A stretch of DNA of 28,624 nucleotides from a virus (IMGVR_UViG_3300027373_000015:1-28624), one strand, 5' to 3'; numbered from the stretch's first letter, positions 1-23,328 are shown. The notes: generated by a model from the letters alone, not told the origin. Translations and numbers: made by a program.

Positions 1-2
1 AT

Positions 3-125
3 GCCCTGAAGCTACTGGAAAATATAAAGGCATGGGACATACAACAAGCTGCTGAAAAAGGCACTTACAAACTGGTTTTGCCAACAAGATTAAGAAAAAG
101 AACACAGAAGTTGCTTAGTTTCTAA
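3..125 (+). CDS. C-terminal part of cassette ORF, truncated by window edge (...GTYKLVLPTRLRKRTQKLLSF*)
   Basis: Open frame from position 3 ending in the TAA of the first TAAC core, as for other cassettes. Confidence 0.65.
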   Translation, partial: ALKLLENIKAWDIQQAAEKGTYKLVLPTRLRKRTQKLLSF

Positions 126-245
126 CGAGTAACGAGTTAACTGGCTTGCGTAATTTGAAAATACACAAAGAAAGAAGGTGCTTATATGGGAGAAGCTACT
201 GATGCAACCACGGGCAGCAAGTCCAAGTTGAATGAGCTGTTATGC
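120..245 (-). repeat. attC-like site 1 (126 bp)
   Basis: TTCTAAC...GTTAACTGGCTTGC / GCAAGTCCAAGTTGAAT...GTTATGC; arms pair with three unpaired bases on the right arm. Confidence 0.85.
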
Positions 246-509
246 CCCACTGCTGCCCAGATTAAAGACATGCAGCACATGCTGGGTATGACTGGCAGCG
301 CACCAAAGGGACAATGGGGATACCGAAACCACTATGCTGCTTCACACGGCAACACAAAGGTACTGGAAAGCATGGCGCAACTGGTAGCGATGGGCTTGGT
401 GTCTGAAGGTTCTACCACTATTACCTTGCAATATTTTCATTGCACCCGTGAAGGCTGCAGGGCCGCTGGGTTAAGTAAAGCCGGTATCAAGCGAGTGTTT
501 GGGGCATAA
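186..509 (+). CDS. Cassette ORF, phage-type hypothetical protein (GYRNHY motif)
   Basis: ATG after AAGAAGGT in attC1 loop; stop is TAA of next core; flanks GTTATGCCCC / GGGGCATAAC complementary over 10 bp. Confidence 0.8.
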   Translation: MGEATDATTGSKSKLNELLCPTAAQIKDMQHMLGMTGSAPKGQWGYRNHYAASHGNTKVLESMAQLVAMGLVSEGSTTITLQYFHCTREGCRAAGLSKAGIKRVFGA

Positions 510-626
510 CTTACCGTGATAACCGGATTACGACACGAAGAGTGCATACAGAAAGAAGATACTGATATGGAAACTGGTAAAATTACGCCCAAAGCAAGTA
601 ATTCCGAGTTGATTAAGGCGTTAGGG
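504..626 (-). repeat. attC-like site 2 (123 bp)
   Basis: GCATAAC...GATAACCGGATTAC / GTAATTCCGAGTTGATT...GTTAGGG. Confidence 0.85.
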
Positions 627-833
627 GCGGGTATGGACTACGAAAAACAACAGGACACACTCTCTGCGCTGCAAGAAGCACGCAAATGGGTGCAAGAAGC
701 ACATGACGAGGCAGAGGGAAGACACGATACTTATGGCTTATATTACATGGATGCGTCGCAGTATGAAATAATGCAGGAAACGGAGAGGCTGCTCACACGC
801 ATAGATATGCTGTTACAACATTTAAGCCCCTAA
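567..833 (+). CDS. Cassette ORF, hypothetical protein
   Basis: ATG 567 after purine-rich GAAAGAAGA in attC2 loop (alternative ATG 633); flanks GTTAGGGGC / GCCCCTAAC. Confidence 0.75.
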   Translation: METGKITPKASNSELIKALGAGMDYEKQQDTLSALQEARKWVQEAHDEAEGRHDTYGLYYMDASQYEIMQETERLLTRIDMLLQHLSP

Positions 834-959
834 CGACCCGTGATAACCGGGTTGCGACCAAAGGAGAAAGAAATGGCCCTGAATGGATATGGCAGTGTAG
901 TAGACGATAGTCCCAAAGCTGACACAGTAAGCAACTCCGAGTTGATTAAGGCGTTAAGC
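828..959 (-). repeat. attC-like site 3 (132 bp)
   Basis: CCCTAAC...GATAACCGGGTTGC / GCAACTCCGAGTTGATT...GTTAAGC. Confidence 0.85.
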
Positions 960-1124
960 CCCGAGGACGAGCAAACAAAAGAATGGTTGGCAGAATCAGC
1001 AAGGCGCATGGCTGGTGCGGCAAAAACTTATTTGGAGCTGGAAAAGTACGATTCTGCCGCAATGTGTGCGATGCGCGCCGATGCCCTGCAATGGGCAAGC
1101 CAGTACTTGAAGCGTGGGGCATAA
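873..1124 (+). CDS. Cassette ORF, hypothetical protein (copy 1 of 2)
   Basis: AAGGAG SD then ATG 873 in attC3 loop; no in-frame ATG near the attC end; identical to 2349-2600. Confidence 0.8.
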   Translation: MALNGYGSVVDDSPKADTVSNSELIKALSPEDEQTKEWLAESARRMAGAAKTYLELEKYDSAAMCAMRADALQWASQYLKRGA

Positions 1125-1247
1125 CGTAACAAAGATAACCGGCTTGGGGAATATTACCCAACCAGAAACGGAGATAGAAAGTGACGGACAAGAATACAGC
1201 AAATTCAGAGGAGCATCCCCAAGTCCGAGTTGATTGCGGCGTTAGGT
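1119..1247 (-). repeat. attC-like site 4 (129 bp)
   Basis: GCATAAC...GATAACCGGCTTGGGGA / TCCCCAAGTCCGAGTTGATT...GTTAGGT. Confidence 0.85.
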
Positions 1248-1582
1248 ACATGCCAATGAGCCAAGAAAATATACTAAATATAGCCAGAAAAACACTGGAT
1301 ACAGGGCTTGATTTTGGCCGGACAACTAGAATTACGCGTGCAACAGACAAAGAACTGATTGATTTTGCCAATGCAATAACAGGTACATGGATGCCAATTG
1401 ATACGGCACCTAGAGACGAACGTGTTTTACTCTGGAACGGTACTGGGACGTATTGTGGCCACTGGGCAAAGAGTATTGAAACAGATGATGAAGCCTGGAT
1501 CATAGCTGAGTTTGGAAACGAGGGGGATCAGCTACTGATAAAGGCTACTCACTGGATGCCACTGCCTGCGCCGCCCGTTTAG
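1181..1582 (+). CDS. Cassette ORF, DUF551-like phage protein
   Basis: WMPIDTAPRD...VLLW...THWMPLPAPP signature typical of DUF551-type phage proteins; GGAG then GTG in attC4 loop; flanks GTTAGGTAC / GTACCTAAC. Confidence 0.8.
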   Translation: MTDKNTANSEEHPQVRVDCGVRYMPMSQENILNIARKTLDTGLDFGRTTRITRATDKELIDFANAITGTWMPIDTAPRDERVLLWNGTGTYCGHWAKSIETDDEAWIIAEFGNEGDQLLIKATHWMPLPAPPV

Positions 1583-1583
1583 T

Positions 1584-1705
1584 ACCTAACGATAGAATTA
1601 ACTGGCTTGCGGAGCCGAAGCGAAAGGATAAGACCAATGAGCGACAAAAAAAATGCTGGAAATGCGCCCGAAAATAGCAAGTCCAAGTTGAATGATGCGT
1701 TAGGG
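1584..1705 (-). repeat. attC-like site 5 (122 bp)
   Basis: ACCTAAC...ATTAACTGGCTTGC / GCAAGTCCAAGTTGAAT...GTTAGGG. Confidence 0.85.
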
Positions 1706-1831
1706 GCGCAGGAGGTTTGGGGATATGGTGAAGACAACGATGGGTGGTACGTGAGCTGTAATGATGAACAGATAGCATGGGCGGCATCAGAAATTAATGC
1801 CAAACGCATTGCCGAGCGAATGAATGCCTGA
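1637..1831 (+). CDS. Cassette ORF, small hypothetical protein
   Basis: AAAGGA SD then ATG 1637 in attC5 loop, reads SKLNDAL through the arm. Confidence 0.7.
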   Translation: MSDKKNAGNAPENSKSKLNDALGAQEVWGYGEDNDGWYVSCNDEQIAWAASEINAKRIAERMNA

Positions 1832-1843
1832 ATTACGGTAAGC

Positions 1844-1975
1844 CTCTAACGTAACTAAGATAACCGGCTGGCGATGCCGGAGAGGAGAAGCCAAATGAGC
1901 CTACAAACTAACGACAGAGAAGCCGCTGAAATTGCTGACACGGTAAGACAGTCCGAGTTGATTGAGGCGTTAGGT
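1844..1975 (-). repeat. attC-like site 6 (132 bp)
   Basis: CTCTAAC...GATAACCGGCTG / CAGTCCGAGTTGATT...GTTAGGT. Confidence 0.8.
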
Positions 1976-1999
1976 ACGGAGGGGACTGACCATGAATGA
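1895..1999 (+). CDS. attC-encoded leader peptide (34 aa, MSLQTND...SELIEALGTEGTDHE), not in ORF track
   Basis: GAGGAG SD, ATG 1895, stop in cATGAATGA overlapping the start of the next ORF. Confidence 0.55.
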   Translation: MSLQTNDREAAEIADTVRQSELIEALGTEGTDHE

Positions 2000-2309
2000 C
2001 TTTGTAGCCAGATGCCGAGAATGGCAGGCAAAAAATACTGATTACACTCTGATGTGCGACACCAACGGCACTGACATATTTTATGTGCAGTGGAATGAAC
2101 TGTCAAAATCACACAGAATGGCATGGATTGGTAAATACGGGCGTGCGGCAAAGGATGCATTTGAAGAGTTTGCAATTAAAAAATGCAAAGTGCCGCAATT
2201 TGTATTGACTGCTGACATGCGCTTGCTTCCTGACCCGCTGTACAACTGGCCACACGGTGATGCAATGCTGGTTTTCCAGACCAAGCAAGATGGTGTTCCA
2301 TTGGTCTAA
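1992..2309 (+). CDS. Cassette ORF, hypothetical protein
   Basis: GGAGGGG SD; stop is TAA of next core. Confidence 0.8.
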   Translation: MNDFVARCREWQAKNTDYTLMCDTNGTDIFYVQWNELSKSHRMAWIGKYGRAAKDAFEEFAIKKCKVPQFVLTADMRLLPDPLYNWPHGDAMLVFQTKQDGVPLV

Positions 2310-2435
2310 CGACCCGTGATAACCGGGTTGCGACCAAAGGAGAAAGAAATGGCCCTGAATGGATATGGCAGTGTAGTAGACGATAGTCCCAAAGCTGACA
2401 CAGTAAGCAACTCCGAGTTGATTAAGGCGTTAAGC
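2304..2435 (-). repeat. attC-like site 7 (132 bp; body identical to site 3)
   Basis: GTCTAAC...GTTAAGC; identical to 830-959 from CTAAC onward. Confidence 0.85.
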
Positions 2436-2600
2436 CCCGAGGACGAGCAAACAAAAGAATGGTTGGCAGAATCAGCAAGGCGCATGGCTGGTGCGGCAAA
2501 AACTTATTTGGAGCTGGAAAAGTACGATTCTGCCGCAATGTGTGCGATGCGCGCCGATGCCCTGCAATGGGCAAGCCAGTACTTGAAGCGTGGGGCATAA
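2349..2600 (+). CDS. Cassette ORF, hypothetical protein (copy 2 of 2)
   Basis: Identical to 873-1124. Confidence 0.8.
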   Translation: MALNGYGSVVDDSPKADTVSNSELIKALSPEDEQTKEWLAESARRMAGAAKTYLELEKYDSAAMCAMRADALQWASQYLKRGA

Positions 2601-2722
2601 CGTAACTAAGATAACCGGCTTGGGGAATATTACCCAACCAGAAACGGAGATACCAAGTGACCGACGAGAATACAGAAATTCAGAGCAGCATCCCCAAGTC
2701 CGAGTTGATTGCGGCGTTAGGG
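2595..2722 (-). repeat. attC-like site 8 (128 bp; close relative of site 4)
   Basis: GCATAAC...GATAACCGGCTTGGGGA / TCCCCAAGTCCGAGTTGATT...GTTAGGG. Confidence 0.85.
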
Positions 2723-2752
2723 GTGAAGCCGAGGAGATGTTGCCATGAATAA
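2657..2752 (+). CDS. attC-encoded leader peptide (31 aa, MTDENTEIQSSIPKSELIAALG...CCHE), not in ORF track
   Basis: GGAG then GTG 2657; stop in cATGAATAA overlapping ATG 2745. Confidence 0.5.
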   Translation: MTDENTEIQSSIPKSELIAALGVKPRRCCHE

Positions 2753-2939
2753 ACCCTATTTTGTAATACTTAATTGCAGTAATGGCGGTATTACTCCGCT
2801 GGTTACTGGTGATTTACACGAGGAATTGGCTACGTTTGACTCAGAAGACGAGGCCGCAGAAGCCGCACGAAACAACACGCTTGGTAATTTCTTCGGCTTC
2901 GAGGTTTTTTGTGCTGGCTGCGGCGAACTTAACGGTTGA
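2745..2939 (+). CDS. Cassette ORF, small hypothetical protein
   Basis: GAGGAG SD; flanks GTTAGGGGT / ACCCCTAAC. Confidence 0.75.
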   Translation: MNKPYFVILNCSNGGITPLVTGDLHEELATFDSEDEAAEAARNNTLGNFFGFEVFCAGCGELNG

Positions 2940-2941
2940 AC

Positions 2942-3002
2942 CCCTAACGACCAGAGTTAACCGGCGGGCGTTTAGCCCGTCCGAGTTGAACGAGCGTTAG
3001 AG
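2942..3002 (-). repeat. attC-like site 9 (61 bp, classical short 59-be-like form)
   Basis: Minus strand reads CTCTAAC GCTC GTTCAACTCGGACGGGC TAAAC GCCCGCCGGTTAAC TCTGGTC GTTAGGG, matching canonical attC top-strand layout. Confidence 0.9.
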
Positions 3003-3018
3003 GCTGAAAGGACAAAAC

Positions 3019-3249
3019 ATGCAAAACGTTGAATACCAACCATATATGCCGAGTTGCGGAACTGAGATGATGCAATTTTACGCCAATTTCTGCGACCAAT
3101 GCGCTGACCCTGACGAGGTTTTGTGGAGCGAAAAACAGGAAGGCTCTGGATGCAAGTTTATCATTGAGGCCACTGCGGAAAGCAAACAGCCTGAACCGTG
3201 GGTGATAAAAGACGGCTGCGCTTGCTGCCTAAATTTCAGAAGACTCTAA
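3019..3249 (+). CDS. Cassette ORF, Cys-rich hypothetical protein (possible metal binding)
   Basis: Own AAAGGA SD; CDQC and CACC motifs; stop is TAA of next core. Confidence 0.75.
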   Translation: MQNVEYQPYMPSCGTEMMQFYANFCDQCADPDEVLWSEKQEGSGCKFIIEATAESKQPEPWVIKDGCACCLNFRRL

Positions 3250-3367
3250 CGAAAACGAGATAACTGGCTTGCGACAAGAAGCAACCGGACAGGAAAGAGG
3301 AACTGATATGGAAAACGTAACAAACAAGGATGAGGTAAGCAAGTCCGAGTTGATTGAGCCGTTAGAG
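3244..3367 (-). repeat. attC-like site 10 (124 bp)
   Basis: CTCTAAC...GATAACTGGCTTGC / GCAAGTCCGAGTTGATT...GTTAGAG. Confidence 0.85.
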
Positions 3368-3736
3368 GCCCGAAATGCAATACAGCCTCTTTACACCGAC
3401 GAACACGGCACACTGAGGTTTAAGGGCAATGCCATTGTGAAATACCTGCTGGATAATGGAGGCATAAACCTTAACGACCTTGCCCGTATTGAGTTTAGCC
3501 AAGATGACCAGCAACACTTTGCCCAACTGATAGGCTACAGCCTGAGTGGATATGGCGACCTAAGCTACGTTGATGATGCCAGCTACGAGGCCGCTGCAAC
3601 TATGGCTGAGGATGGTCTGGACGAGAAAGACGCGCGGATTGCCACGCTGACACAGAAGCTGAATGCTCTTAAAGCAGCATTGCAGTTGCCGCTGGCAGAG
3701 TTGTTTGGTGTGCATCCCGACGACCTTAGCCTCTAA
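3308..3736 (+). CDS. Cassette ORF, phage-type hypothetical protein (RFKGNAIV...FAQLIGYSLSGY)
   Basis: AAAGAGGA SD then ATG 3308 in attC10 loop; flanks GTTAGAGGC / GCCTCTAAC. Confidence 0.8.
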   Translation: MENVTNKDEVSKSELIEPLEARNAIQPLYTDEHGTLRFKGNAIVKYLLDNGGINLNDLARIEFSQDDQQHFAQLIGYSLSGYGDLSYVDDASYEAAATMAEDGLDEKDARIATLTQKLNALKAALQLPLAELFGVHPDDLSL

Positions 3737-3750
3737 CGAGTATTAGACCC
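3731..3750 (-). other. Putative attI-like simple site closing the array
   Basis: CTCTAAC core not followed by an attC hairpin but by a short inverted box (TCTAA cgagta TTAGA), then AT-rich DNA. Confidence 0.45.
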
Positions 3751-3775
3751 CCTAATTTTTACCAAATACGACACA

Positions 3776-4093: not shown

Positions 4094-4238
4094 CCCCCGC
4101 GTCTTCAGCTACCTAATTATGGGGCTCTACCTGCTCAACGCCCTGCGCTGGGCCTATGAACGTAAACCGGCTAATGTCTGCTACTGGCTCTCAGCCCTGG
4201 CAATCACCGCAACCGTAACCTTTGGGTATAAACACTAA
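4065..4238 (+). CDS. Small membrane protein (57 aa, MQAIRTLLLDPRVFSYLIMGLYLLNALRWAY...), not in ORF track
   Basis: GGAAGGGA SD, two hydrophobic stretches, TAATG overlap with next gene. Confidence 0.65.
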   Translation: MQAIRTLLLDPRVFSYLIMGLYLLNALRWAYERKPANVCYWLSALAITATVTFGYKH

Positions 4239-4903
4239 TGTCAGCCAACCACGCCACAGACCTGCAGGCCATCCTTGACGCTGCCATTGCCACCGCCAAG
4301 GCCAACCCCACCGCTGCCAACATCAGCACCGTGGAAAAGGCCCGCAAAGCCGTGGATGACTACAACTCTGCCCAGGCTGGTGACCCTGCTGGTGAAAAGT
4401 TCAAAACACAGGCCGCTGCCCTGCAATACCTGCAGCGCACCTGGAAGATCGAAAAAAGCAAACTCTCTGCCGATGTCCAGTCTGGCAAAGTACCCCGCAA
4501 GGATGGCTTGTTCTCTGCCAAAGATCTGGACTACTACGCCAACGCCGTCCGGCTGGATCTTAAAACCAGCGAACCACAACAAAGCAGTGATGGCCTGTCA
4601 GATGATATCAAGCGCGAAACAGCGCGCAGACTGAGAATCCATAACGAAGAACGCGAAGGCCTACTGATCAACAGGCTGGAAGAAGAGGCCAGGGATGCCA
4701 AGCTCTGGTCAGCAGTAAAATCAGATATTGAAAACCACGCCCCTGTCATTGTGCATGAACTAATCAACCGGCTGCTGCCGATTATTGAAGACGATGAACT
4801 TCGCGCCAGGGTGTTGTCACTAACTCATGAACTGAGGCTGGTATATGAGGATGCTATTGCAGATATCTTTGACCGTTACGCAAAGATAGAGGGCGAAGAG
4901 TGA
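4238..4903 (+). CDS. Probable terminase small subunit (Nu1-like position)
   Basis: Directly upstream of and overlapping (GTGA) the large subunit; helical, ARRLRI...EG.LI segment reminiscent of Nu1-like proteins. Confidence 0.6.
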   Translation: MSANHATDLQAILDAAIATAKANPTAANISTVEKARKAVDDYNSAQAGDPAGEKFKTQAAALQYLQRTWKIEKSKLSADVQSGKVPRKDGLFSAKDLDYYANAVRLDLKTSEPQQSSDGLSDDIKRETARRLRIHNEEREGLLINRLEEEARDAKLWSAVKSDIENHAPVIVHELINRLLPIIEDDELRARVLSLTHELRLVYEDAIADIFDRYAKIEGEE

Positions 4904-6801
4904 GCATTGCAACCCTGCCCATACCTGCGGCGCCGCGCCCCAGGGCAGCAGAACGCAAGGTCTTTGCCAAGCGCAAGCGCTTGCATGGGCCGCAGTGGTT
5001 TGAACGTAACATCAACGTTCCGGTCGGCAGCCGTCAGGGCCTCTATCGCAACCAGAACAACCCTGCCATGTGGGGCGTGCTTGATTGGTCTACCAGATCC
5101 CATGTCAGGGTTACGGTGTTGGCCAAGGGTATCCAGATCGGCGGCACCCTGGCTTTTTACGGCCTGCTGCTGCGCGAAGGGGAATACACCAGCGATAACG
5201 CCCTGATTGTTGTTGCCGATGAACGCACCCTGAAAAAGCTGATCAAAAAACGGCTGCAGAAAATGATCGACAGCAGCCCTAACCTGGCCGCCATTAAATC
5301 AGCAAACCCCGATGACACCACCATGTACAGCGTTACCTTGGGTAACGGATTCACCATCGAGGGCGGCTGGGCATCATCAGAAGTTTCGGTATCGTCTGAA
5401 TCCTACCGGGTAGTCATCCTGGACGAAATCAGCAAATACAAATCACGGGGCAACATTGAAGATGCAAAAAGCCGTGCCACCGTATTCCCTGACACACACA
5501 AGATCTGGATCCTCTCCAGCCCCGGCATAGACACCGATGACCCGGAAAACCGTGATCCCCTCATGGTAGAGGCTGAAGCATGTGACGTGATGCTTGAATT
5601 TCACGCCAAATGCCCTGATTGCGGAAAAGAACAGGTAATGACCTTTGACCGGTTCGGCTGGCCCGGACAAGTCAATCTTGAAGGCAAAACAGAGGCAGAC
5701 CACAAGGCAATCCGCCGCAACCGCTCTGCCTGGTACCAGTGTGAACACTGTAATAGCCGCTGGAATGACTACAAGCGCGACAAAGCCGTGCTGGCCAGCA
5801 TGAAAACCGGCTGGAAACCAACCGACGGCTGCGACATCGAGCAACCCCAGTCGGTATATTTCCACTTTCCGGCCTGGCTCTCTCCCTATGTCAGCCTATC
5901 TGAAGTGGCGGCAAGCTGGCTTGAGGCCCAGGGGGATGAAGAGAAACTACGCAAGTGGTACAACCGCTTTGCCGGGGTAAGCCACCGCGTCAACAGCACC
6001 CATGCACCAGAGCTGGACGCCCTTGCCGATCGTGCCGAAGTCTACCCGGCAGAAGTGCCGATGAACGCCGGTATTCTTACCGCCGGGGTAGACGTACAGA
6101 TCAACCGGATAGAGATTGAAGTTGTGGCCTGGGGTGTAGGTAATGAATCGTGGGGCATAGAAAACAACGTCTTTTACGGTGACCCACGGCTGCCCGATGT
6201 CTGGGGTCAGCTCGACACCTACCTGATGAAGCGCTGGAAGCATGAAAGCGGGGTAGAAGTCGGCCTTTCACGTACCTTTGTAGACTCTGGCTACTGTACC
6301 AGCCACGTCTACAAATTCACCTCACCACGCAAGCCCCGCAACATCTACGCCGTTAAGGGGGCATCATCGGCAGAGGCTGCAGAGATCCTGGGGCCAACCA
6401 AACAGAGAATAGGATTAATCAAGGCAGAGGCCTTCATATTGGGCGGAAATAAATTAAAAAGCACCATGTTTGGCTACTTTGATATTACCCAGCCCGGCCC
6501 TGGCTACTGTCACCTACCTGACACCTACGACAAGACCTGGTACGAACAAATGCAGGCAGAACACCAGGTAGCCCAGAAGACAAGCGGTAAGCTGGTACAG
6601 GTCTGGCAAAAGAAAAAGGCCAACCTTGCCAACGAAGCCATAGACAAGCGCCAATATGCCCTGGCCGCGCTCATGTCTCTGAGGGTGGATATCAGGGCGC
6701 AAGTGGCAGCATTAAAATCTGCAGCAGCAAACCTTAACAAACCACAACAGCAAGCGGCATCAGGCCCAACAGGCGGATTTGTTCGCGGATGGAGACGATA
6801 A
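4900..6801 (+). CDS. terL: Terminase large subunit, lambda GpA family
   Basis: K.xQxG.T motif, VVILDE Walker B, CPDC/CEHC zinc motif, LTAGVDVQ nuclease motif, NEAID. Confidence 0.93.
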   Translation: MSIATLPIPAAPRPRAAERKVFAKRKRLHGPQWFERNINVPVGSRQGLYRNQNNPAMWGVLDWSTRSHVRVTVLAKGIQIGGTLAFYGLLLREGEYTSDNALIVVADERTLKKLIKKRLQKMIDSSPNLAAIKSANPDDTTMYSVTLGNGFTIEGGWASSEVSVSSESYRVVILDEISKYKSRGNIEDAKSRATVFPDTHKIWILSSPGIDTDDPENRDPLMVEAEACDVMLEFHAKCPDCGKEQVMTFDRFGWPGQVNLEGKTEADHKAIRRNRSAWYQCEHCNSRWNDYKRDKAVLASMKTGWKPTDGCDIEQPQSVYFHFPAWLSPYVSLSEVAASWLEAQGDEEKLRKWYNRFAGVSHRVNSTHAPELDALADRAEVYPAEVPMNAGILTAGVDVQINRIEIEVVAWGVGNESWGIENNVFYGDPRLPDVWGQLDTYLMKRWKHESGVEVGLSRTFVDSGYCTSHVYKFTSPRKPRNIYAVKGASSAEAAEILGPTKQRIGLIKAEAFILGGNKLKSTMFGYFDITQPGPGYCHLPDTYDKTWYEQMQAEHQVAQKTSGKLVQVWQKKKANLANEAIDKRQYALAALMSLRVDIRAQVAALKSAAANLNKPQQQAASGPTGGFVRGWRR

Positions 6802-6802
6802 C

Positions 6803-7015
6803 ATGGCATCACCATATCTTACAATCGGACAGGTAGCGCAAAAGCTGGGGGTCAGCACCCGTACCGTCCGCAACTGGTGGCTGTCAGGTAAAACCTCTTT
6901 GCAGGTCTGGTGCCCTGGCCACCTGCTGGGTAAAACAGGCATCAAGTTTACACGGAAAAGTGTGGAAGTTTTCATACAACAAGGCAACGTGAAGCCCGAA
7001 GAATACACGAAATAG
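6803..7015 (+). CDS. Helix-turn-helix DNA-binding protein (MerR/excisionase-like)
   Basis: YLTIGQVAQKLGVSTRTVRNW; GGAG SD. Confidence 0.85.
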   Translation: MASPYLTIGQVAQKLGVSTRTVRNWWLSGKTSLQVWCPGHLLGKTGIKFTRKSVEVFIQQGNVKPEEYTK

Positions 7016-7032
7016 CTCACTGTACATGCAGT

Positions 7033-7077
7033 GAAAAAGTCGAAAAAGTCGAAAAAGTCGAAAAAGTCGAAAAGGCC
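7033..7077 (+). repeat. Tandem 9-bp repeat GAAAAAGTC x4 plus one variant
   Basis: Directly visible in intergenic gap. Confidence 0.95.
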
Positions 7078-7099
7078 TACATGCTTTTCGGCTTTTTTT
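7061..7099 (+). terminator. Hairpin / possible intrinsic terminator overlapping the repeats
   Basis: AAAAAGTCGAAAAG pairs with CTTTTCGGCTTTTT, ending in a T run. Confidence 0.45.
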
Positions 7100-7118
7100 A
7101 TTGCACGCTCTAACCACC

Positions 7119-7685
7119 ATGAGCGTAACCATACCAACAACCGAACCGCAGCAACTTCAGGCCGGTGATTCCATCAAATGGAAGATCAGCCTGGCTGATT
7201 ATCCGGCCTCTGCTGGCTGGTATCTTAAGTACCGGCTGCTGGCATCAAGCGGCAAGATTGATATCAGATCTAACGCTGATGGTGATGACCACCTGGTTGC
7301 AATCACTGCTGCTGCCTCTGCAGCCTGGTCCGCCGGTACCTACACCATGCAGCGCATGGTTACCAACGACACAGACCGCTACACCCTTGACACCCGTACC
7401 ATCCAAATCCTGCCTGATCTGTCAGCAGCAACCGACGCAACCGATACCCGCACACAGGCACGCCGGGCACTGGATGCTATTAACGCCGTACTTGAGGGTC
7501 GTGCCTCCCGCTCTGATGCAGAGTATGAAGTTACCACCGCTGGATCTACCCGCAAACTTAAGTCCTTAACTACAGAGCAACTGCTTCCCCTGCTGCAGCA
7601 TTACACTCTGGCTGTCTGGCGTGAACAGAACCCCGGCAAGCTCTGCCCGCAACTACGCCTTAATGTGAGGTGTACCAATGGGTAA
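7119..7685 (+). CDS. Head completion / head-tail joining protein (gpW-like position)
   Basis: Between terminase and portal; LDAINAVLEGRA...EYEV...RKL C-terminus. Confidence 0.65.
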   Translation: MSVTIPTTEPQQLQAGDSIKWKISLADYPASAGWYLKYRLLASSGKIDIRSNADGDDHLVAITAAASAAWSAGTYTMQRMVTNDTDRYTLDTRTIQILPDLSAATDATDTRTQARRALDAINAVLEGRASRSDAEYEVTTAGSTRKLKSLTTEQLLPLLQHYTLAVWREQNPGKLCPQLRLNVRCTNG

Positions 7686-9207
7686 GCTCAGTCGCATGGT
7701 CAACCGTGCCCTATCTGCCGTGGGCCTGCGCCGTGTGCGCAACTCCGGTATTGTCCCTGGCACAGAATCCTATCAGATCCTGAAAGAGTGGATTGAAAGC
7801 CCGTTAAAGGGTGCCGGTTCGCTTGATTGGGATCTGCGCAACAAGATCAGATCTACCCGTACCACCTCCCGCAAGCTGGCCCTTAATAACCCGCTGGTAC
7901 GTCAATATTTGCAGCTGCTTGAGCAAAACGTCATCGGCCCGCGCGGTATGCGCCTGCAGTGTCAGGTGCGTGATGCTGACGGAAAACTGAATAAATCCAT
8001 CAACAACGCCATTGAAGCCGCATTTGCTGATTTCTGGCGTTACCCCTGGGTAGATGGCCGCCTGTCCGGTGTACAGGGCGAGCAGCTGCTTATCCGCACC
8101 ATGGCTGTTGATGGTGAGGCCTTTGTCCGTCGCGTGCTGGGTAGCCGCTTCAAGTACGGCATGGCCCTGCAAATGATTGATGCAGACCTGGTTGATCATC
8201 ACCTTAACCGTCCCCGTGGTGCCAACGGAGAAAATGAAATTAGGCTGGGTATTGAAGTTGATGAATGGGGTGCGGATGTTGCCATCTACGTGCTGGAATC
8301 TGGCCAGCAGGATATTAACGGCGGACGTTCACAGCGCAAGCACAACCGTATACCGGCATCTGAAATCATCCACCTTTACGATCCAGAGCGGATCAATCAG
8401 AGCCGGGGCATTACCTGGCTGAACTCGGTTGCTTTGTCGCTCAACATTCTGGACGGCTATGTAGAAGCTTCTTTGGTTACTGCCCGTACCGCTGCCTGCT
8501 CCATGCCTATGTTCAGGCACACCAACACAGAGGCATACAGCACCGATTCAAGCGGCAACCCTGTAGCACAAAACTTTAGCATCGAACTAAACCCAGGCGG
8601 TGGTCTTACTCTTCCGCCCGGACTCGAAATGCAGGAATTCGACCCCAGCAAGCCAACTATCGGCTTTGGGGAATTCACCAAAGAGAACAAGCGCTGGGTT
8701 TCATCCGGCATGCAGGTTTCTTACAACGCCCTGGCTAATGACCTTGAAGGGGTCAACTACTCCAGTATGCGTTCAGGGCTGCTGATAGAGCGTGATTCAT
8801 GGCAGTGCCTGCAACAGATGTGGGTAGATCGTTTCAGACACCCGGTGCATGCCTGGTTTGTGCCTGCTGCAATTCTCTCAGGTAACCTTCGGTTGCCCAC
8901 CCGTGATGCCTCCCTGTATCTGGCTGCCCGCTTTATACCTCGTGGCTGGAAGTGGGTTGATCCGCTCAAAGATGTTACCGCCGCTGTATTGGCCATTAAA
9001 GAGGGGCTTGGTTCCCGCACCGGATTCCTGGGCGAACAGGGCGAAGATTTTGAAGCCATTGTTGAGCAGCTGGCGGATGAAGCCAACATTACCAGTGATG
9101 CCGGTATCACCCTGGGAGAAGATCAACAACAGAACCAGCAGCAGAATAGTGATAAGCGCCTGATGGCCGCCCTACGTCTGCTGCTTGCAGAAGAAAAGGA
9201 GGCATAA
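7678..9207 (+). CDS. Portal protein, lambda family
   Basis: SRKLALNNP, VDGEAF, Q.RG, VNYSSMRSGL, WVDPLKD motifs. Confidence 0.93.
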   Translation: MGKLSRMVNRALSAVGLRRVRNSGIVPGTESYQILKEWIESPLKGAGSLDWDLRNKIRSTRTTSRKLALNNPLVRQYLQLLEQNVIGPRGMRLQCQVRDADGKLNKSINNAIEAAFADFWRYPWVDGRLSGVQGEQLLIRTMAVDGEAFVRRVLGSRFKYGMALQMIDADLVDHHLNRPRGANGENEIRLGIEVDEWGADVAIYVLESGQQDINGGRSQRKHNRIPASEIIHLYDPERINQSRGITWLNSVALSLNILDGYVEASLVTARTAACSMPMFRHTNTEAYSTDSSGNPVAQNFSIELNPGGGLTLPPGLEMQEFDPSKPTIGFGEFTKENKRWVSSGMQVSYNALANDLEGVNYSSMRSGLLIERDSWQCLQQMWVDRFRHPVHAWFVPAAILSGNLRLPTRDASLYLAARFIPRGWKWVDPLKDVTAAVLAIKEGLGSRTGFLGEQGEDFEAIVEQLADEANITSDAGITLGEDQQQNQQQNSDKRLMAALRLLLAEEKEA

Positions 9208-9210
9208 CCC

Positions 9211-11190
9211 ATGCCTGAAAAGAAATTCTACTCAATCAAAGCCATGGCAGAAACCAACACGGCTGAGATCTTTATCTATGAGCAGATTGGTGAAGATTGG
9301 TGGACCGGTGAAGGAATTGCCGCGAAAAACTTCTGCAAAGAAGTGGCTGCCCTCAAGGTTAACCAGATCGATCTGCACATTAATAGCCCTGGTGGTTCGG
9401 TGTTTGATGGTCAGGCCATCTACAACGCACTCAAGCGCCACCCTGCCAGCGTCACCACCTACGTTGACGGTATTGCCGCTTCAATCGCCTCAGTTATTGC
9501 CCTGGCTGGTGACACTGTCGTTATGGCCCCCAATGCCCTCTATATGATTCATAACCCTTGGGGCCTGGCACAAGGCAGCGCCGATGAAATGCGCAAGTAT
9601 GCAGACCTGCTGGACAAGGTGCGTGACACCATCGTTTCTGTCTACCGCGAAAAGTGCGGCCTGTCTGATGAAGAGATCATTGCTGCCATGGATGCAGAAA
9701 CCTGGATGAGTGCAGAAGAAGCCCAGGCGTTTGGATTTGTAGATCAGATTGGCGACGAACTGAAGCTGGCTGCCATGGCACTGAAAGGCGCTTCTGAGTT
9801 TGACTTCAAGGCCCTGGGCTTCAAAAAAGCCCCGGCCATTTCCGCAAGCATTACCTCTGCTCCGGCAGAGACACCACAAACGGCCCCACAGGCCGAAATA
9901 AAGGAGGCTCCAATGCCTAACGTAGCTGTTGGAACCCCGGCTGCCGGGGAACGTAACCATCAGAGCGAAGCTGCAGAAATTGCAGCAATGTGCGCACAGA
10001 ACCACTGTGCAGACCGTGCATCAGGATTTATTAAAGCCGGTCTCACCCCTGATCAGGTCGGGCGCCAGATTCTTGATCTACACGCATCCGGCGCACTAGC
10101 CACCCCTGCTGCAGAAGCCCCGGCACTGGTAGACATGGGTAAAGATGCTAAGCTGTACAGCTACCAGAAAGCTGTACTGGCTGCTATTGAAATGCGCGAA
10201 GGCCGCAACGCATCCGGGTTTGAGTATGAAATCCACCAAGAGATCGCCAAGCGTCTGCCCCAAAACTACCAGGCCAAAGGTGGCATTTTTATGCCTATGC
10301 GGGTGCAGAACACCGTGCTTACCACCGGAGGTACCAACACCGGTGCTGAAACCGTATTTACTGAGTACGGTGAATTCATCGACCTGCTGCGCAACATCTC
10401 TGTTGTTGCCCGCATGGGTGCCCGTACTCTAACTGATCTGCGCGGCCCGATCACCTTCCCGAAACAGACCGGCGCAAGCACCGCATACTGGGTAGGTGAA
10501 AACCCAGGCGCCGGTGTAACTCAGAGCAACCCCACCTTTGGCACCATGACTATGAGCCCCAAAACCATGCAGGCAACCGGTGCAGTATCCCGCCAGCTGC
10601 TGGTACAGTCTACGCCTGATGTTGAAGGTCTGGTACGTGAAGATCTGGCAGCAGTCCACGCCCTTGGCTGGGATCTGGCCGCCCTGCACGGAACCGGAGC
10701 AGCAAACGACCCAACCGGCGTATATGTAGCTGCTGGTGTCAATGCTGTTGCTATGGGTGGTGTGCCAACCTTCGGCAAGCTGGTAGACATGGAGACCGAA
10801 ATCAACAAAGACAATGCCCTGATCAACAATATGGGCTTTGTAACCACCTCTGGTATGGCCGGAAAGATGCGCCAGACCCTTGAAAGCGCCACCGCTGGTG
10901 CCCGCTGGATCTGGGACGGCAACGCCATGGAAGGCATCATGGCTGGCTACCGTGCGGTATCCAGTAACCAGGTTAAAGCAAATCTTGGCACAGGTACAGA
11001 TGAACACGGCATTGTCCTGGGCAACTGGGCTGACATGCTGATCGGTATGTGGGCAGGCCTGGAGCTGATTGTTGATCCGTACACCCTGGCTGACCAGGGG
11101 CTGGTCAAAGTCACCTCGTTCCAGATGTGTGACGTAGGCCTGCGCCGAGCAGAATCTTTCTGCAAGGCCACTGGAGCCAAGCTAGCCTAA
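9211..11190 (+). CDS. ClpP-type prohead protease fused to major capsid protein (HK97 fold)
   Basis: INSPGGSVFDG, GIAASIAS, MIHNPW, ETWMSAEEA..GFVD followed by capsid motifs (AYWVGE, GTGAANDPTG, GNWAD, VDPYT). Confidence 0.92.
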   Translation: MPEKKFYSIKAMAETNTAEIFIYEQIGEDWWTGEGIAAKNFCKEVAALKVNQIDLHINSPGGSVFDGQAIYNALKRHPASVTTYVDGIAASIASVIALAGDTVVMAPNALYMIHNPWGLAQGSADEMRKYADLLDKVRDTIVSVYREKCGLSDEEIIAAMDAETWMSAEEAQAFGFVDQIGDELKLAAMALKGASEFDFKALGFKKAPAISASITSAPAETPQTAPQAEIKEAPMPNVAVGTPAAGERNHQSEAAEIAAMCAQNHCADRASGFIKAGLTPDQVGRQILDLHASGALATPAAEAPALVDMGKDAKLYSYQKAVLAAIEMREGRNASGFEYEIHQEIAKRLPQNYQAKGGIFMPMRVQNTVLTTGGTNTGAETVFTEYGEFIDLLRNISVVARMGARTLTDLRGPITFPKQTGASTAYWVGENPGAGVTQSNPTFGTMTMSPKTMQATGAVSRQLLVQSTPDVEGLVREDLAAVHALGWDLAALHGTGAANDPTGVYVAAGVNAVAMGGVPTFGKLVDMETEINKDNALINNMGFVTTSGMAGKMRQTLESATAGARWIWDGNAMEGIMAGYRAVSSNQVKANLGTGTDEHGIVLGNWADMLIGMWAGLELIVDPYTLADQGLVKVTSFQMCDVGLRRAESFCKATGAKLA

Positions 11191-11203
11191 TCAAACCTGA
11201 AAC

Positions 11204-11227
11204 GGGCGGCCTGTAATGAGGCCGCCC
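11204..11227 (+). terminator. GC-rich hairpin after capsid gene
   Basis: GGGCGGCCT-gtaatg-AGGCCGCCC; no T tail, so may be an mRNA stabiliser. Confidence 0.45.
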
Positions 11228-11245
11228 TGTAATGAGGACATACCT

Positions 11246-11527
11246 ATGAAAAAATATAAAGTATTACGCGGCTTTTGCCTTGGTGCCGGGAAAGATGTTC
11301 ATCCTGGCGAAGAAATTGAGCTGACGCCTGAACGGGCAGAACTTTTTATCCGTCAAGGCCGTATCAAGCTGGTCACAGACCCGATTGACATGAACAAGGC
11401 CGCCCTGCTGGCCAGTATCGCCATTGCCGAGTCGGTTGAAGTGCTTAACGAGCTGGTAGGCGCTGAAGAGACAGACACTGAAATTGTTGAAGCCTATGAA
11501 GCCCGTGCTGCAGAGCTTGAAGGGTGA
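11246..11527 (+). CDS. Hypothetical head-associated protein
   Basis: GAGGA SD; follows capsid gene. Confidence 0.7.
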   Translation: MKKYKVLRGFCLGAGKDVHPGEEIELTPERAELFIRQGRIKLVTDPIDMNKAALLASIAIAESVEVLNELVGAEETDTEIVEAYEARAAELEG

Positions 11528-11832
11528 GTATTCCAGGCTCTGAAATAGCCAGCATATCGCTGGCTGACTTCGGCGAACCCTGCACCCTGCAGCATAGAGC
11601 AACCCGCCGCCCGGTCACCGCTATTGTCTCAGACATCAACGAACCCGGCCGCGTGATCATGGGCGAAGGTCCGGCAGATGAACACAGCATCGAACTGGCA
11701 GCAGCAGAGGCCGCCGGTGTCAACACAGACTGGACCGCAACCGTCCAGGCAACCGGCATTACCCGCCCTGTGTTGTGGGTATCGCCACCCAATGCAGGCT
11801 TTGTCAAAATCATCCTGGGGGCTGCAGTATGA
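11524..11832 (+). CDS. Putative head-tail adaptor
   Basis: Position, size, overlapping start/stop; LADFGEP N-terminal motif. Confidence 0.55.
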   Translation: MSIPGSEIASISLADFGEPCTLQHRATRRPVTAIVSDINEPGRVIMGEGPADEHSIELAAAEAAGVNTDWTATVQATGITRPVLWVSPPNAGFVKIILGAAV

Positions 11833-12275
11833 GCACCGTAACCTACAGCCAGATCGTGCAGCACATGGTGGCCACCCTGGTCAACCTGCTGCCGGTAAAG
11901 CACAGGGCCAGCGTTATTGCCTGGCCTGATCGCCCCGATGATCTGACTGAACAGAAGCTGGAAAAAGATCATCCTAACGGTTGCTACGCCGTTCGGTATC
12001 TGAAATCAACTGCAGGCGAAACCGGACACGAAACCGCCCTGTTCGGCGTGGTGCTGGTGGCAAACGGTTTTACCCGTGTGGGCAACATGGCAGCCACAGC
12101 AAAGATAGCCATGCAGGATGAAGTATCACCCCTGGGTCAGAAGTATACCTTTGCCGGGGTAGAACCGATTGAGCACCTGGCAGGCTGGGTGAAAGACACC
12201 GCAATATTTTCCGTATTCAGAGGGAAGCAGAGCATTACAAACAAGGCCGCGTTAATAGCGGATCTCAATCTTTAA
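11829..12275 (+). CDS. Putative tail terminator (Gp37-like)
   Basis: ATGA overlap; WPDRPDD...HPNG motif; precedes tail tube. Confidence 0.55.
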   Translation: MSTVTYSQIVQHMVATLVNLLPVKHRASVIAWPDRPDDLTEQKLEKDHPNGCYAVRYLKSTAGETGHETALFGVVLVANGFTRVGNMAATAKIAMQDEVSPLGQKYTFAGVEPIEHLAGWVKDTAIFSVFRGKQSITNKAALIADLNL

Positions 12276-12285
12276 GGAGAAAACC

Positions 12286-13056
12286 ATGCAAGGACCATTG
12301 AGAGCAACAAAGTATTTCATGCCTCAGGGCCGGTTGATGATGGCAGAAAAAGACCCCACCACCGGCGAACCGATGGGCTTTATTCATGTCGGAAACGCCG
12401 TTGATATCAAGGCCTCTCTCAACGTATCAACCATCGACAAGAAAGAGGCAATGACCGGTCAGTTTGGCTTGGCTGCCCAGTTTGAAAACGAAAAAGGCGT
12501 TAACTTTTCTTTCACCCTGGAAAGTTTTCACGAAGAAAATCTGGCAATGGCATTGCGTGCCAACATCACAACCATTGGTGCAGGTACAGCCGCTGACAAG
12601 CCTATAAAATTGTACAAAGGCAAAGAGATGGTCCTGCCGCATATCAAGGCCACGGTAACGGAAATCACTTCAGCTGATGGAGCGACTACTTATGTTGCAG
12701 GTACCGATTACATCGCTTACGACAACTCTGTGCTAGTGCCTGCTGCATCTGGTGCCCTTGCTACTGCTGACACCGGCGATGGTGTTGACGTGCTGGTCAC
12801 CTACAGTTACCCCGCTCAAAAGAAAGTTGATTCGTTCACCACTGGCCAGAAAAGTTACTGGTTCTGGCTGGATGCCATTGACGCTGCTAATGATCTGGGC
12901 GTGAAGAGCTTCCACTTTTACAAAGTCAACCCGCAGCCACTGAAAGAACTGCTGCTGATCTCAAGCGAACCGGGGAATATCTCCATTGAAGGTGCCTGTA
13001 TGCTGGATGAAACCCGTCCGTCTGGCACGTCAAAATTCTTCAGCTACAGCGAATAA
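12286..13056 (+). CDS. Major tail tube protein
   Basis: TAAGGAG SD; YFMPQGR...VGNA...ENLAMAL pattern typical of siphovirus tube proteins. Confidence 0.75.
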   Translation: MQGPLRATKYFMPQGRLMMAEKDPTTGEPMGFIHVGNAVDIKASLNVSTIDKKEAMTGQFGLAAQFENEKGVNFSFTLESFHEENLAMALRANITTIGAGTAADKPIKLYKGKEMVLPHIKATVTEITSADGATTYVAGTDYIAYDNSVLVPAASGALATADTGDGVDVLVTYSYPAQKKVDSFTTGQKSYWFWLDAIDAANDLGVKSFHFYKVNPQPLKELLLISSEPGNISIEGACMLDETRPSGTSKFFSYSE

Positions 13057-13069
13057 CCGATGCAGGCCA

Positions 13070-13096
13070 GCGGGGATGATTTCTAATCATCCCCGC
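13070..13096 (+). terminator. Perfect 12-bp hairpin after tail tube gene
   Basis: GCGGGGATGATT-tct-AATCATCCCCGC. Confidence 0.5.
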
Positions 13097-13153
13097 GCAC
13101 AAGCACCGATTACAACCATCCTTTGTCGGAGAACACCGACCAGGAGCCACGTA

Positions 13154-13423
13154 ATGACCACCACCATAACCTTCAAAGCCTCAATCAAAGAAAGCATGAT
13201 CTCTCTTGATCAGTTTTTAAACACCCGCGTTTCAGTCGCTGATGATGGCTATGGTTATGCTGATGAAATGCTGTCTGCTCGTGCTTGGCGTTTGCGTGAA
13301 AAATCAAGGCTGTATGTGTGGATTGATCGGCTGTTCTTCTGGGATAAAGATCATTGTAAAGAATGCTACGAAATTGAACTTGAGCGTAAGCAGTTGCCGC
13401 CTGAGTACAGGGTGTTTAAGTAA
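13154..13423 (+). CDS. Small phage protein (SLDQFLN...DEMLSARAWR...IDRLFFW..DHC)
   Basis: AGGAG SD; motif pattern familiar from phage tail/lysis regions. Confidence 0.75.
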   Translation: MTTTITFKASIKESMISLDQFLNTRVSVADDGYGYADEMLSARAWRLREKSRLYVWIDRLFFWDKDHCKECYEIELERKQLPPEYRVFK

Positions 13424-14724: not shown

Positions 14725-14736
14725 AGGAGCATACCA

Positions 14737-16239: not shown

Positions 16240-16561
16240 GATACTACGCACTCAACAGATCATTATTGATCTGCCCAAGCCAGGCGCTGAACCGTGGATG
16301 CAAGTGGTGGTGCAGTACGTTGAAATGTCTGACGATCTGCAGGAGGTTATCAACACGGTAGGCACCTGGAACCAGTTTAGTGTCCGTGTTGCTGCTGTTG
16401 CTGGCTCTTTGTATCCGCTGGTTGATCCCGTGCAGCCTCCTGCTGGACTGATCAGTAACGCCGGTATCGTGCAATCAATTGGGCTATCAGTCATTGACAT
16501 GATCATTAAGCGCTATGGCGGCACCTTTGATCCGGCAACCGGCGACATCGTACTGGAGTAG
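16232..16561 (+). CDS. Hypothetical protein
   Basis: ATG overlapping upstream stop; fills gap in operon. Confidence 0.65.
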   Translation: MRKILRTQQIIIDLPKPGAEPWMQVVVQYVEMSDDLQEVINTVGTWNQFSVRVAAVAGSLYPLVDPVQPPAGLISNAGIVQSIGLSVIDMIIKRYGGTFDPATGDIVLE

Positions 16562-16563
16562 CA

Positions 16564-22907: not shown

Positions 22908-22908
22908 C

Positions 22909-23319: not shown

Positions 23320-23328
23320 GGGTTTGAC

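What the first reader, a model, noticed from the sequence alone, without database searches (positions are those of the whole stretch)
120..3367. attC polarity is inverted: genes run antisense to canonical cassettes
Seen: in all ten sites the three unpaired bases lie on the right arm of the + strand (T, A and G in TCCRAGTTGA). The minus strand of site 9 reads TAAC-GCTC-GTTcAACtCGGaCGGGC...GGTTAAC...GTTAG. Established: in canonical attC the extra C of L'' is on the top strand in the arm next to the gene's stop, and the bottom strand with extrahelical G/T is the recombinogenic one. Inference: here the coding (+) strand is the recombinogenic strand and crossover is at TAA|C. A cassette is therefore attC body plus downstream ORF (126-509, 510-833, 834-1124, 1125-1589, 1590-1849, 1850-2309, 2310-2600, 2601-2947, 2948-3249, 3250-3736). 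Ten of ten reversed ORFs is the opposite of the usual rule.
Basis: partly seen in the sequence, partly recalled or inferred. Interest (0 to 1): 0.88.

Follow-up and report, generated by a model that had tools for sequence, protein, structure and literature searches.

The report
Phage integron array with reversed genes
A tailed phage carries ten small genes, each placed behind an integron recombination hairpin that faces the opposite way to those of bacterial integrons, in a row that ends at an insertion site matching a bacterial (likely Geobacteraceae) chromosomal integron, so the phage likely borrows its host's integrase to swap accessory genes that it reads from the other strand.

Summary
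Confirmed. All ten sites carry unpaired T/A/G on the right arm of the + strand, the bottom-strand geometry of attC(oxa2). A covariance model trained on coding strands of bacterial cassettes hits all ten on the minus strand only. Nine sites hold a ribosome-binding site and start codon inside the hairpin loop, so each unit is attC body plus downstream gene. Related viral contigs break at TAAC (29 pairs share downstream only, 1 upstream only).

New here: the array ends in an attI (3731-3757) of the same family as a chromosomal integron whose IntI is 88-89% identical to Trichlorobacter lovleyi's. That integron has related attC sites but normally oriented genes, and window 5-127 also sits at its attI. 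The 36%-complete record has no integrase; related phages encode one. Phage PH101, whose attC bottom strands Qi et al. 2023 showed recombining, is also reversed, unremarked in their text; TJE1 is canonical.

Recombination itself was not shown here. The scan noted such arrays before in at least 30 other genomes (AI notes). Verdict: new variant of integron array.

The parts
1..125 (.). End of a further cassette ('cassette 0'), cut by the contig end; open frames on both strands, orientation undetermined
   Evidence: 5-127 is 100% identical in L430, where it is joined to a bacterial-type attI, TA genes and intI; a relative is joined to the phage attI in runs X2 and X4
120..245 (+). attC site 1, bottom (T/A/G) strand on +; start codon at 186 in the loop
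186..509 (+). Cassette 1 ORF, 107 aa, reads through the right arm; stop is the TAA of site 2
   Evidence: phrog_13561 E 8e-9; followed by other attC bodies after 510 in runs X2 and X4
504..626 (+). attC site 2; ATG at 567 in the loop
567..833 (+). Cassette 2 ORF, 88 aa, no family
   Evidence: cassette found from 507/508 with other upstream DNA in X2, X4, X6
828..959 (+). attC site 3; ATG at 873 behind AAAGGAG
873..1124 (+). Cassette 3 ORF, 83 aa; cassette 3 is identical to cassette 7
   Evidence: 0 differences in 831-1125 against the second copy
1119..1247 (+). attC site 4; GTG at 1181 in the loop, read in another frame than in the other sites
1181..1582 (+). Cassette 4 ORF, 133 aa, DUF551
   Evidence: PF04448 E 3e-5, phrog_924
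1584..1705 (+). attC site 5; ATG at 1637 in the loop
1637..1831 (+). Cassette 5 ORF, 64 aa, no family
1844..1975 (+). attC site 6, 76% identical to the bacterial chromosomal attC of L431; the loop carries GAGAGGAG and an ATG at 1895 where the bacterial site has none; short leader ORF 1895-1999 overlaps the next start
1992..2309 (+). Cassette 6 ORF, 105 aa, no family
   Evidence: occurs with different upstream DNA from about 1990 in X2 and X4
2304..2435 (+). attC site 7 (body identical to site 3)
2349..2600 (+). Cassette 7 ORF (copy of cassette 3 ORF)
2595..2722 (+). attC site 8; GTG at 2657 starts a leader ORF (to 2752) that overlaps the next start
2745..2939 (+). Cassette 8 ORF, 64 aa, no family
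2942..3002 (+). attC site 9, short type (5-nt loop, no internal start); close to the attC of a class 1 integron cassette and 96% identical to a site in phage G003
3019..3249 (+). Cassette 9 ORF, 76 aa
   Evidence: phrog_6074 E 7e-7
3244..3367 (+). attC site 10; ATG at 3308 behind AAAGAGGA
3308..3736 (+). Cassette 10 ORF, 142 aa; stop is the TAA of the attI core; predicted to be the newest cassette
   Evidence: phrog_5848 E 0.008, weak
3731..3757 (+). attI-type insertion site (TAAC-N4-ATTAGAC...CCCTAATT); same family as the attI of bacterial chromosomal integrons L431, L433, L437, L438, L440
   Evidence: 12 different upstream sequences among 17 loci holding the motif, all changing at TAAC; intI downstream in 9 of 17; 8 listed loose ends before 3725-3735 in 4 runs
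4238..28503 (+). Lambda-like late region (gpA terminase, portal, ClpP-capsid fusion, tail tube, endolysin, tape measure), co-directional with the cassette ORFs; no tyrosine recombinase in the record

Best explanation
This is a phage-borne integron cassette array whose attC hairpins and attI keep normal integron polarity toward each other while the genes lie on the hairpins' bottom strand, and it is likely shuffled by an integron integrase, most likely the host's, cutting at TAA|C. Shown by sequence: each unit is attC body + downstream gene; in 9 of 10 sites the loop holds the ribosome-binding site and start codon, and in 7 of 10 cassettes the stop codon supplies the TAA of the next core. Inferred: the folded coding strand is the substrate. 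Excision takes out body + gene, and new cassettes enter at the attI at 3734, the 3' end of the transcript, so the newest gene is read last rather than first. The genes are likely read from a phage promoter upstream of the array, running toward the late genes. The reversal likely arose because the phage acquired attI (with or without intI) co-directional with its operon, after which only cassettes with genes on the bottom strand were expressed and kept. Relatives keep their own intI just behind attI; this phage has none at that slot.
For: Geometry equals the G16/A20/T24 bottom strand described for attC(oxa2) in PMC5027507 (passages). Model hits 10 of 10 on minus. A near-identical site in class 1 integrons recombines in this polarity: first cassette after attI1 in L038, after blaIMP-13 in L036/L037. 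Viral site pairs with bodies >=80% alike: 29 share downstream only, 1 upstream only, 1 both, 319 neither (n=350). Orientation, longest ORF between sites: viral 22 bottom / 5 top / 9 tie (n=36), bacterial 0 / 37 / 4 (n=41); further bacterial loci 5 / 95 / 11 (n=111). Family hits: viral IntI loci 20 of 63 bottom-strand ORFs against 1 of 59 top; bacterial 19 of 64 top against 0 of 62 bottom. Phage IntIs pass TIGR02249 (3 of 3); in 85 viral intI loci 119 of 126 model hits have canonical polarity to intI. attI shared with a bacterial chromosomal integron whose cassette ORFs are canonical (7 of 18 top-strand ORFs with Pfam hits, 0 of 5 bottom; hand-picked); its IntI is 88-89% identical to Trichlorobacter lovleyi's. 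PH101 sites, whose bottom strands recombined better than top strands in PMC9892861, lie on the gene strand.
Against: No recombination, circle or transcript was observed. No integrase in the record, which is 36% complete; the host is inferred from site similarity only. In the long sites the recombinogenic hairpin is weak: the minimum-energy fold of + recovers it only in sites 4, 5, 9 and partly 10, and constrained energies with the loop left open are -4.7 to +4.6 kcal/mol with almost no difference between strands. Some breaks are not at TAAC: the cassette 6 ORF has other upstream DNA from its start codon in X2 and X4; sites 4 and 8 have 94%-alike bodies behind the same cassette but different downstream genes; the bodies of sites 6, 9 and 10 occur elsewhere with different DNA on both sides. 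The 29 pairs fall into about six families, so they are not independent. In viral intI loci 17 of 66 segments had the longer ORF on the top strand, and a stop-codon position test there was even (17 against 18).
Confidence: 0.82

Rival explanations
1. The sites are integron-derived relics now used only as translation-start modules, and units are exchanged by homologous or phage Red-type recombination between the repeats, not by IntI.
For: Loops are 64-77% purine with RBS and start against 53-56% in the bacterial sites; weak folding; breaks at an ORF start and at right arms; no intI in the record.
Against: Junctions fall at a 4-5 nt core with unrelated DNA on one side; the three unpaired bases and their spacing are kept in 10 of 10 sites and the inner stems remain complementary; the duplicate 3/7 has 0 differences in 295 nt up to TAAC and 8 in the next 119 nt (Fisher p 4e-5); attI is conserved.
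Confidence: 0.08
2. The same mechanism, but catalysed by a phage-encoded IntI lying in the missing 64% of this genome (or supplied by co-infecting phages), not by the host enzyme.
For: Related phages with this site subtype encode full IntI directly behind a TAAC-N4/5-NTTA site (G001-G003); the record is a fragment.
Against: In those relatives intI follows attI within about 60 nt; here that slot holds an 88-aa ORF and then the terminase genes, with no intI remnant. The attI is of the bacterial chromosomal family.
Confidence: 0.2
3. The left end of the window is a prophage junction: 1-125 is the first cassette of the host's chromosomal integron, and the phage inserted at host attI using site 1 as its attachment site.
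For: 5-127 is joined to a bacterial attI + TA + intI in L430; the window and L435 both begin about 125 nt before the junction, as contigs do at an assembly branch.
Against: A relative of the same sequence is joined directly to the phage-type attI and the phage ORF behind it in X2 and X4, so it circulates in phage arrays; no phage-end/host-attI junction was recognised among the host-type attI loci whose ORFs I listed.
Confidence: 0.12
4. The genes are ordinary cassettes inserted backwards by top-strand recombination, or the true genes are on the minus strand.
For: Top-strand recombination does invert cassettes (PMC5027507, passages); minus-strand ORFs up to 185 aa exist.
Against: Inverting a cassette turns site and gene together, so their relative polarity would stay canonical; start codons lie inside the sites on +; 0 of 17 minus ORFs hit PHROGs.
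Confidence: 0.02

Closest known systems
CALINs and integrons in phage genomes (Qi et al. 2023, PMC9892861; parts 1-4 of 7 of the text and part 1 of 2 of the supplement read; figures not seen)
   Same: Clustered, co-oriented attC sites in a phage without adjacent intI; small phage accessory genes as cargo. Two of their arrays that I checked (PH101, ctTUS972/MW202573) also have genes on the bottom strand.
   Different: The text calls TJE1 and PH101 typical arrays and has 0 occurrences of 'opposite', 'reverse' or 'antisense'. TJE1 is canonical. Here there is also an attI, start codons inside attC loops, and a matching bacterial chromosomal integron.
Canonical integron cassettes, class 1 and sedentary chromosomal; attC(oxa2) type (Nivina et al. 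2016, PMC5027507, passages)
   Same: R and L boxes, three extrahelical bases G/A/T opposite the AAC arm, 61-132 nt length, purine-rich bottom-strand loop, breakpoints at the AAC/GTT core, attI at the array end.
   Different: Genes are on the bottom strand, behind their attC, reading toward attI; the newest cassette would be expressed last; the loop serves as translation start.
Chromosomal integron of Trichlorobacter-like Geobacteraceae (loci L431, L433, L437, L438; named through IntI relatives)
   Same: Same attI family, related 132-nt attC (76% to site 6, 58-65% to the other long sites), one cassette end shared at 100% (L430).
   Different: There the sites are homogeneous, the genes canonical, TA modules and intI follow attI, and the loops lack the bottom-strand RBS-ATG module.
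Treponema integrons with inverted integrase (Wu et al. 2013, PMC3607928, passages; Cury et al. 2016, PMC4889954, passages)
   Same: intI and cassette genes are transcribed in the same direction, as in the intI-bearing phage relatives.
   Different: In Treponema intI is transcribed toward attI, i.e. intI is turned; in these phages intI points away from attI as usual and it is the genes that are turned relative to attC.

Membership tests
attC site | R boxes with conserved AAC/GTT core, paired in the hairpin | tested here: met
   TAAC...GTTA in 10 of 10
attC site | Two or three extrahelical bases (G16, optional 20, T23/24) with a 6-bp stem between first and last | tested here: met
   G, A, T with 3+3 pairs in 10 of 10; G 8 nt from the core in 9 of 10 (rule from PMC5027507)
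attC site | Unpaired central spacer of 5-6 nt per arm; length 57-141 nt | tested here: inconclusive
   Lengths 61-132 fit; right arm fits, left arm is up to about 3 nt longer in several sites
attC site | Match to an attC covariance model | tested here: met
   10 of 10 on minus, own model trained mostly on this subfamily; the IntegronFinder model was not available; Rfam gave 0 matches
attC site | Recombined by IntI as a folded bottom strand | not testable with these tools
   Indirect only: close relative in class 1 arrays, natural junctions, published assay on PH101 sites
CALIN (Cury 2016) | Two or more attC within 4 kb on the same strand, no neighbouring intI | tested here: met
   10 sites, spacing 260-465 nt; no TIGR02249 or PF00589 match in 28.6 kb; record 36% complete
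Complete integron | intI adjacent to the array | tested here: not met
   met in relatives G001-G004
Complete integron | attI at the integrase-proximal end | tested here: met
   3731-3757; same motif precedes intI in 9 of 17 loci and takes 12 different upstream sequences
Canonical cassette array | Cassette ORFs on the top strand, each followed by its own attC | tested here: not met
   ORFs on the bottom strand, starting inside the preceding attC
Canonical cassette array | Pc promoter at attI reading into the array | tested here: inconclusive
   One 9/12 sigma-70-like match on minus at 3826-3798; 5 matches found against 4.8 expected in 1-4300
Treponema-type inverted-integrase integron | intI transcribed toward attI | tested here: not met
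   No intI here; in phage relatives intI points away from attI

The most novel reading that the evidence does not exclude
Phages run a mirror-image integron system on the host's own machinery. They carry a copy of the host attI, rebuild host attC loops into translation-start modules on the recombinogenic strand, and use host (or their own) IntI to collect accessory genes. The reversed polarity works as a firewall: phage cassettes that land in the host integron face away from its promoter, and host cassettes (including anti-phage ones) that land in the phage array are silent, so two gene pools share one recombinase yet stay functionally separate. This would be a site-specific engine for phage genome mosaicism.
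Probability: 0.35. Interest if true: 0.88.

Novelty: new variant of a known kind. Interest (0 to 1): 0.76.

Why it matters
Cassette orientation is treated as a fixed property of integrons, enforced by strand-selective recombination so that genes face the Pc promoter. A widespread phage class that keeps the recombination polarity but reverses the genes shows the rule is set by the promoter, not by the chemistry. It offers a site-specific explanation for part of the gene-by-gene mosaicism of phage accessory regions. It also gives a tractable case for how an attC becomes attached to a gene (host attC next to a phage version carrying RBS and start), and links a phage array to a chromosomal integron through shared attI, attC and one cassette. 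Tools that assign each gene to the attC behind it will mis-cut these cassettes.

Tried and rejected
Rfam: 0 matches in 1-4200. First viral pattern scan: 0 loci; a two-arm gapped pattern gave 1; a cassette 0 pattern gave 0, so the orientation of cassette 0 stays open. Site 9 against GenBank phages: only short chance hits. Unconstrained and constrained folding did not separate the strands, so energy is no evidence for polarity. Stop-codon position tests were weak: 38 of 75 against 24 of 87, 17 against 18 of 66. Promoter scan at chance level. I first read the junction of 1-125 to attI as an empty array and dropped that when L430 showed the same DNA at a bacterial attI. An IntI tree (78 sequences, only 5 bacterial) placed phage IntIs in several groups and is too thin for claims of origin. 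The model found nothing in the whole PH101 record by the fast search and only weak hits locally (E 1e-5 to 0.09). All laid runs were contigs, so strand and level of RNA could not be seen. No look-alike earlier findings for this stretch. Nine literature searches listed no paper whose title or abstract start describes reversed phage cassettes; subscription journals and all figures were not covered, nor the Dryad annotation file of Qi et al., which may show the arrows.
Full report
Context. The window is a whole virus record of 28,624 nt, linear, 36% complete. From 4238 on it encodes a lambda-like late region on the + strand: gpA terminase, portal, ClpP-capsid fusion, tail tube, endolysin, tape measure. 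Neither TIGR02249 nor PF00589 matches anywhere in it.

The observation. Ten sites lie between 120 and 3367, each TAAC-N7..10-[AT]TAACYGG ... TCCRAGTTGA-N7(6)-GTTA. The right-arm motif occurs 10 times on + and 0 times on -. Pairing the arms leaves T, A and G unpaired on the right arm in 10 of 10, with 3+3 pairs between them. Nivina et al. 2016 (PMC5027507, passages) state that on the bottom strand the extrahelical bases lie on the arm opposite the AAC triplet, and give G16, A20, T24 for attC(oxa2). The bottom strand of the blaOXA-2 attC in plasmid locus L037 carries the same TCCGAGTTGA. I built a covariance model from 29 attC sites taken on the coding strand (24 from bacterial genome loci found with this motif family, 5 downstream of annotated class 1 genes). 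It hit all ten sites on the minus strand, E 1.6e-11 to 2.7e-3, and nothing better than E 2.3 on +. The model is biased to this subfamily, so it tests strand, not membership in general.

The genes are on +. Four of nine distinct + ORFs match PHROGs against 0 of 17 minus ORFs. Nine sites have a purine-rich loop with a start codon behind an RBS-like tract. Six read through the right arm as S-[EK]-L into the gene (sites 1, 2, 3, 5, 7, 10). Two start short leaders whose stops overlap the next ATG (6, 8), and one reads through in another frame (4). Site 9 is short and has its RBS downstream. Seven ORFs end at the TAA of the next TAAC.

Where the units break. A close relative of site 9 is the attC of a cassette in class 1 integrons: first after attI1 in L038, after blaIMP-13 in L036 and L037, followed by different cassettes, with junctions at G|TT on the strand equal to our minus strand. 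So IntI1 has used this site type in the polarity claimed. Among viral sites with bodies at least 80% alike, 29 of 350 pairs share only the downstream 60 nt, with identity starting at TAAC; 1 shares only upstream, 1 both, 319 neither. Bacterial pairs show the same linkage in strand terms (10, 2, 2, 371 of 385). The 29 pairs come from about six families. The internal duplicate (cassettes 3 and 7) has 0 differences over 831-1125 and 8 over 1126-1244. Contigs from four public runs (three studies; X1 may be the source sample) continue into other attC bodies right after 510, 1126 and 3738, and hold cassette 2 from 507/508 with other upstream DNA. Against a single rule: the cassette 6 ORF has foreign upstream DNA from its start codon in X2 and X4, and several bodies occur with unrelated DNA on both sides, as bacterial attC families also do.

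Phage against bacteria. With the same motif family, the longest ORF between neighbouring sites lay on the bottom strand in 22 of 36 viral segments (5 top, 9 ties) and in 0 of 41 bacterial segments (37 top, 4 ties). In 22 further bacterial loci it was 95 top, 5 bottom, 11 ties of 111 (three of these loci share a contig or strain with training sites), with Pfam hits on 19 of 64 top and 0 of 62 bottom ORFs (up to four segments per locus). Viral contigs often encode IntI: three tested pass the TIGR02249 cut-off with intact catalytic motifs, and 533 viral stretches encode a relative of the query, of which the best 80 were kept (that count may include other tyrosine recombinases and mis-binned bacterial DNA). 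In 85 such loci the model gave 126 hits: 119 with the top strand opposite intI (117 upstream of it, in 35 loci) and 7 the other way, all downstream. Between those sites (two duplicate loci and the downstream hits dropped) the longer ORF was on the bottom strand in 37 of 66, top in 17, tie in 12, and PHROG hits were 20 of 63 bottom against 1 of 59 top. So attC and intI keep canonical geometry in phages and the genes are what is turned.

The attI and the likely host. The last TAAC (3734) begins TAAC-N4-ATTAGAC. A TAAC-N4..6-TTA motif lies within 230 nt before intI in 14 of 36 phage loci (2.4 expected from shuffles; in two of the 14 the match falls inside the intI start region). A scan for the window's version gave 17 loci with 12 different upstream sequences, all changing at TAAC, and intI downstream in 9. 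Four with long arrays (L431 on a 335-kb contig, L433, L437, L438) are bacterial chromosomal integrons: homogeneous 132-nt attC, TA modules or intI behind attI, a YkuD or HrpB gene beyond. Their cassette genes are canonical (Pfam hits on 7 of 18 top-strand and 0 of 5 bottom-strand ORFs; 45 of 79 listed ORFs hand-picked for the scan). Phage locus L439, with the same attI, has hits on 4 of 6 bottom-strand and 0 of 2 top-strand ORFs. The L431 IntI is 88-89% identical to proteins named Trichlorobacter lovleyi integron integrase, and its attC is 84% identical to one in Geobacter sp. UBA4074. Site 6 aligns with that attC at 76% and differs in the loop, where the phage has GAGAGGAG...ATG. In L430, window 5-127 is joined at TAACG to the bacterial attI, TA genes and an IntI 97% identical to L431's. 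One cassette therefore occurs both in the phage array and at the bacterial attI. L430 is a single 2.3-kb contig, and X1 shows the same junction over 24 nt.

What is in print. Qi et al. 2023 (PMC9892861; parts 1-4 of 7 and supplement part 1 read, figures not seen) describe phage CALINs and show IntI1 recombining bottom strands of TJE1 and PH101 sites better than top strands. They do not mention reversed genes. I checked three of their phages. TJE1 is canonical. In PH101 the tested bottom strands lie on the strand of the annotated genes, and a duplicated body is linked to its downstream DNA. In ctTUS972 the model hits minus while the genes are on +. Their assay is thus existing, unremarked support for coding-strand recombination in a reversed phage array, on other DNA. 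Treponema integrons (PMC3607928, passages) turn intI, not the genes. Loot et al. 2017 (PMC5371416, passages) show that long loops can lower the chance of the recombinogenic fold, which fits the weak folding of the long sites here and suggests slow turnover (inference). PMC4889954, PMC8618304 and PMC8876359 (passages) did not describe reversed arrays. The scan's own notes list 31 findings of this kind in at least 30 genomes; I reached my reading before that look-up and do not count them as evidence.

Verdict. Shown: site anatomy, strand, gene direction, natural junctions at TAAC, attI, and the contrast with bacterial arrays of the same site family. Inferred: IntI activity on the coding strand, the host as source of IntI, the promoter, and the reason for the reversal. 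It is a CALIN with attI by the tested features, not a canonical cassette array, and a new variant of a known kind.

Noticed in passing
L430:1-123 and window 5-127: The same cassette end sits in the phage array and at the attI of a bacterial chromosomal integron; its gene direction is unknown.
   Followed up: partly
window 3761-3826: Behind the attI, contigs in runs X1, X2, X4 and X6 diverge into several different sequences, so the slot between attI and the terminase genes is itself variable; one loose end in X4 begins an ORF loosely like the start of G003-type IntI (30 nt seen only).
   Followed up: no
window 1119-1247 against 2595-2722: A one-base length difference in the loop puts the GTG start of site 4 in frame with the downstream gene, whereas in site 8 it starts a 32-codon leader; loop indels can rewire the N-terminus.
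   Followed up: partly
L036:6001-6250, L037, L038: The class 1 cassette carrying the site-9-like attC has no convincing ORF and varies in length between plasmids (only 3-4 plasmid records hold most of it).
   Followed up: partly
L365:7465-11234, L352, L362, L418, L420: In a few viral loci attC sites lie downstream of intI with opposite polarity (7 hits).
   Followed up: no
L336:5258-6030 (G003): The cassette next to the phage intI carries its own AT-rich promoter-like stretch with an inverted repeat, a gene and an HTH gene whose stop is the attI core; it could regulate intI.
   Followed up: no
L431, L433, L438 arrays: The bacterial arrays hold repeated about 360-nt cassettes without a clear ORF.
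   Followed up: no
viral intI loci L367, L373, L377, L386, L388, L420: Reversed cassettes with known functions include DNA methyltransferases, Mom-like modification proteins, PAPS reductase, DHH phosphoesterase and an HNH nuclease, i.e. likely counter-defence cargo.
   Followed up: no
window 13423-16239: Two large ORFs (433 and 500 aa) without Pfam or PHROG match lie between the tail-tube region and the lysis genes; GC drops to 0.42-0.46 at 13-15 kb.
   Followed up: no
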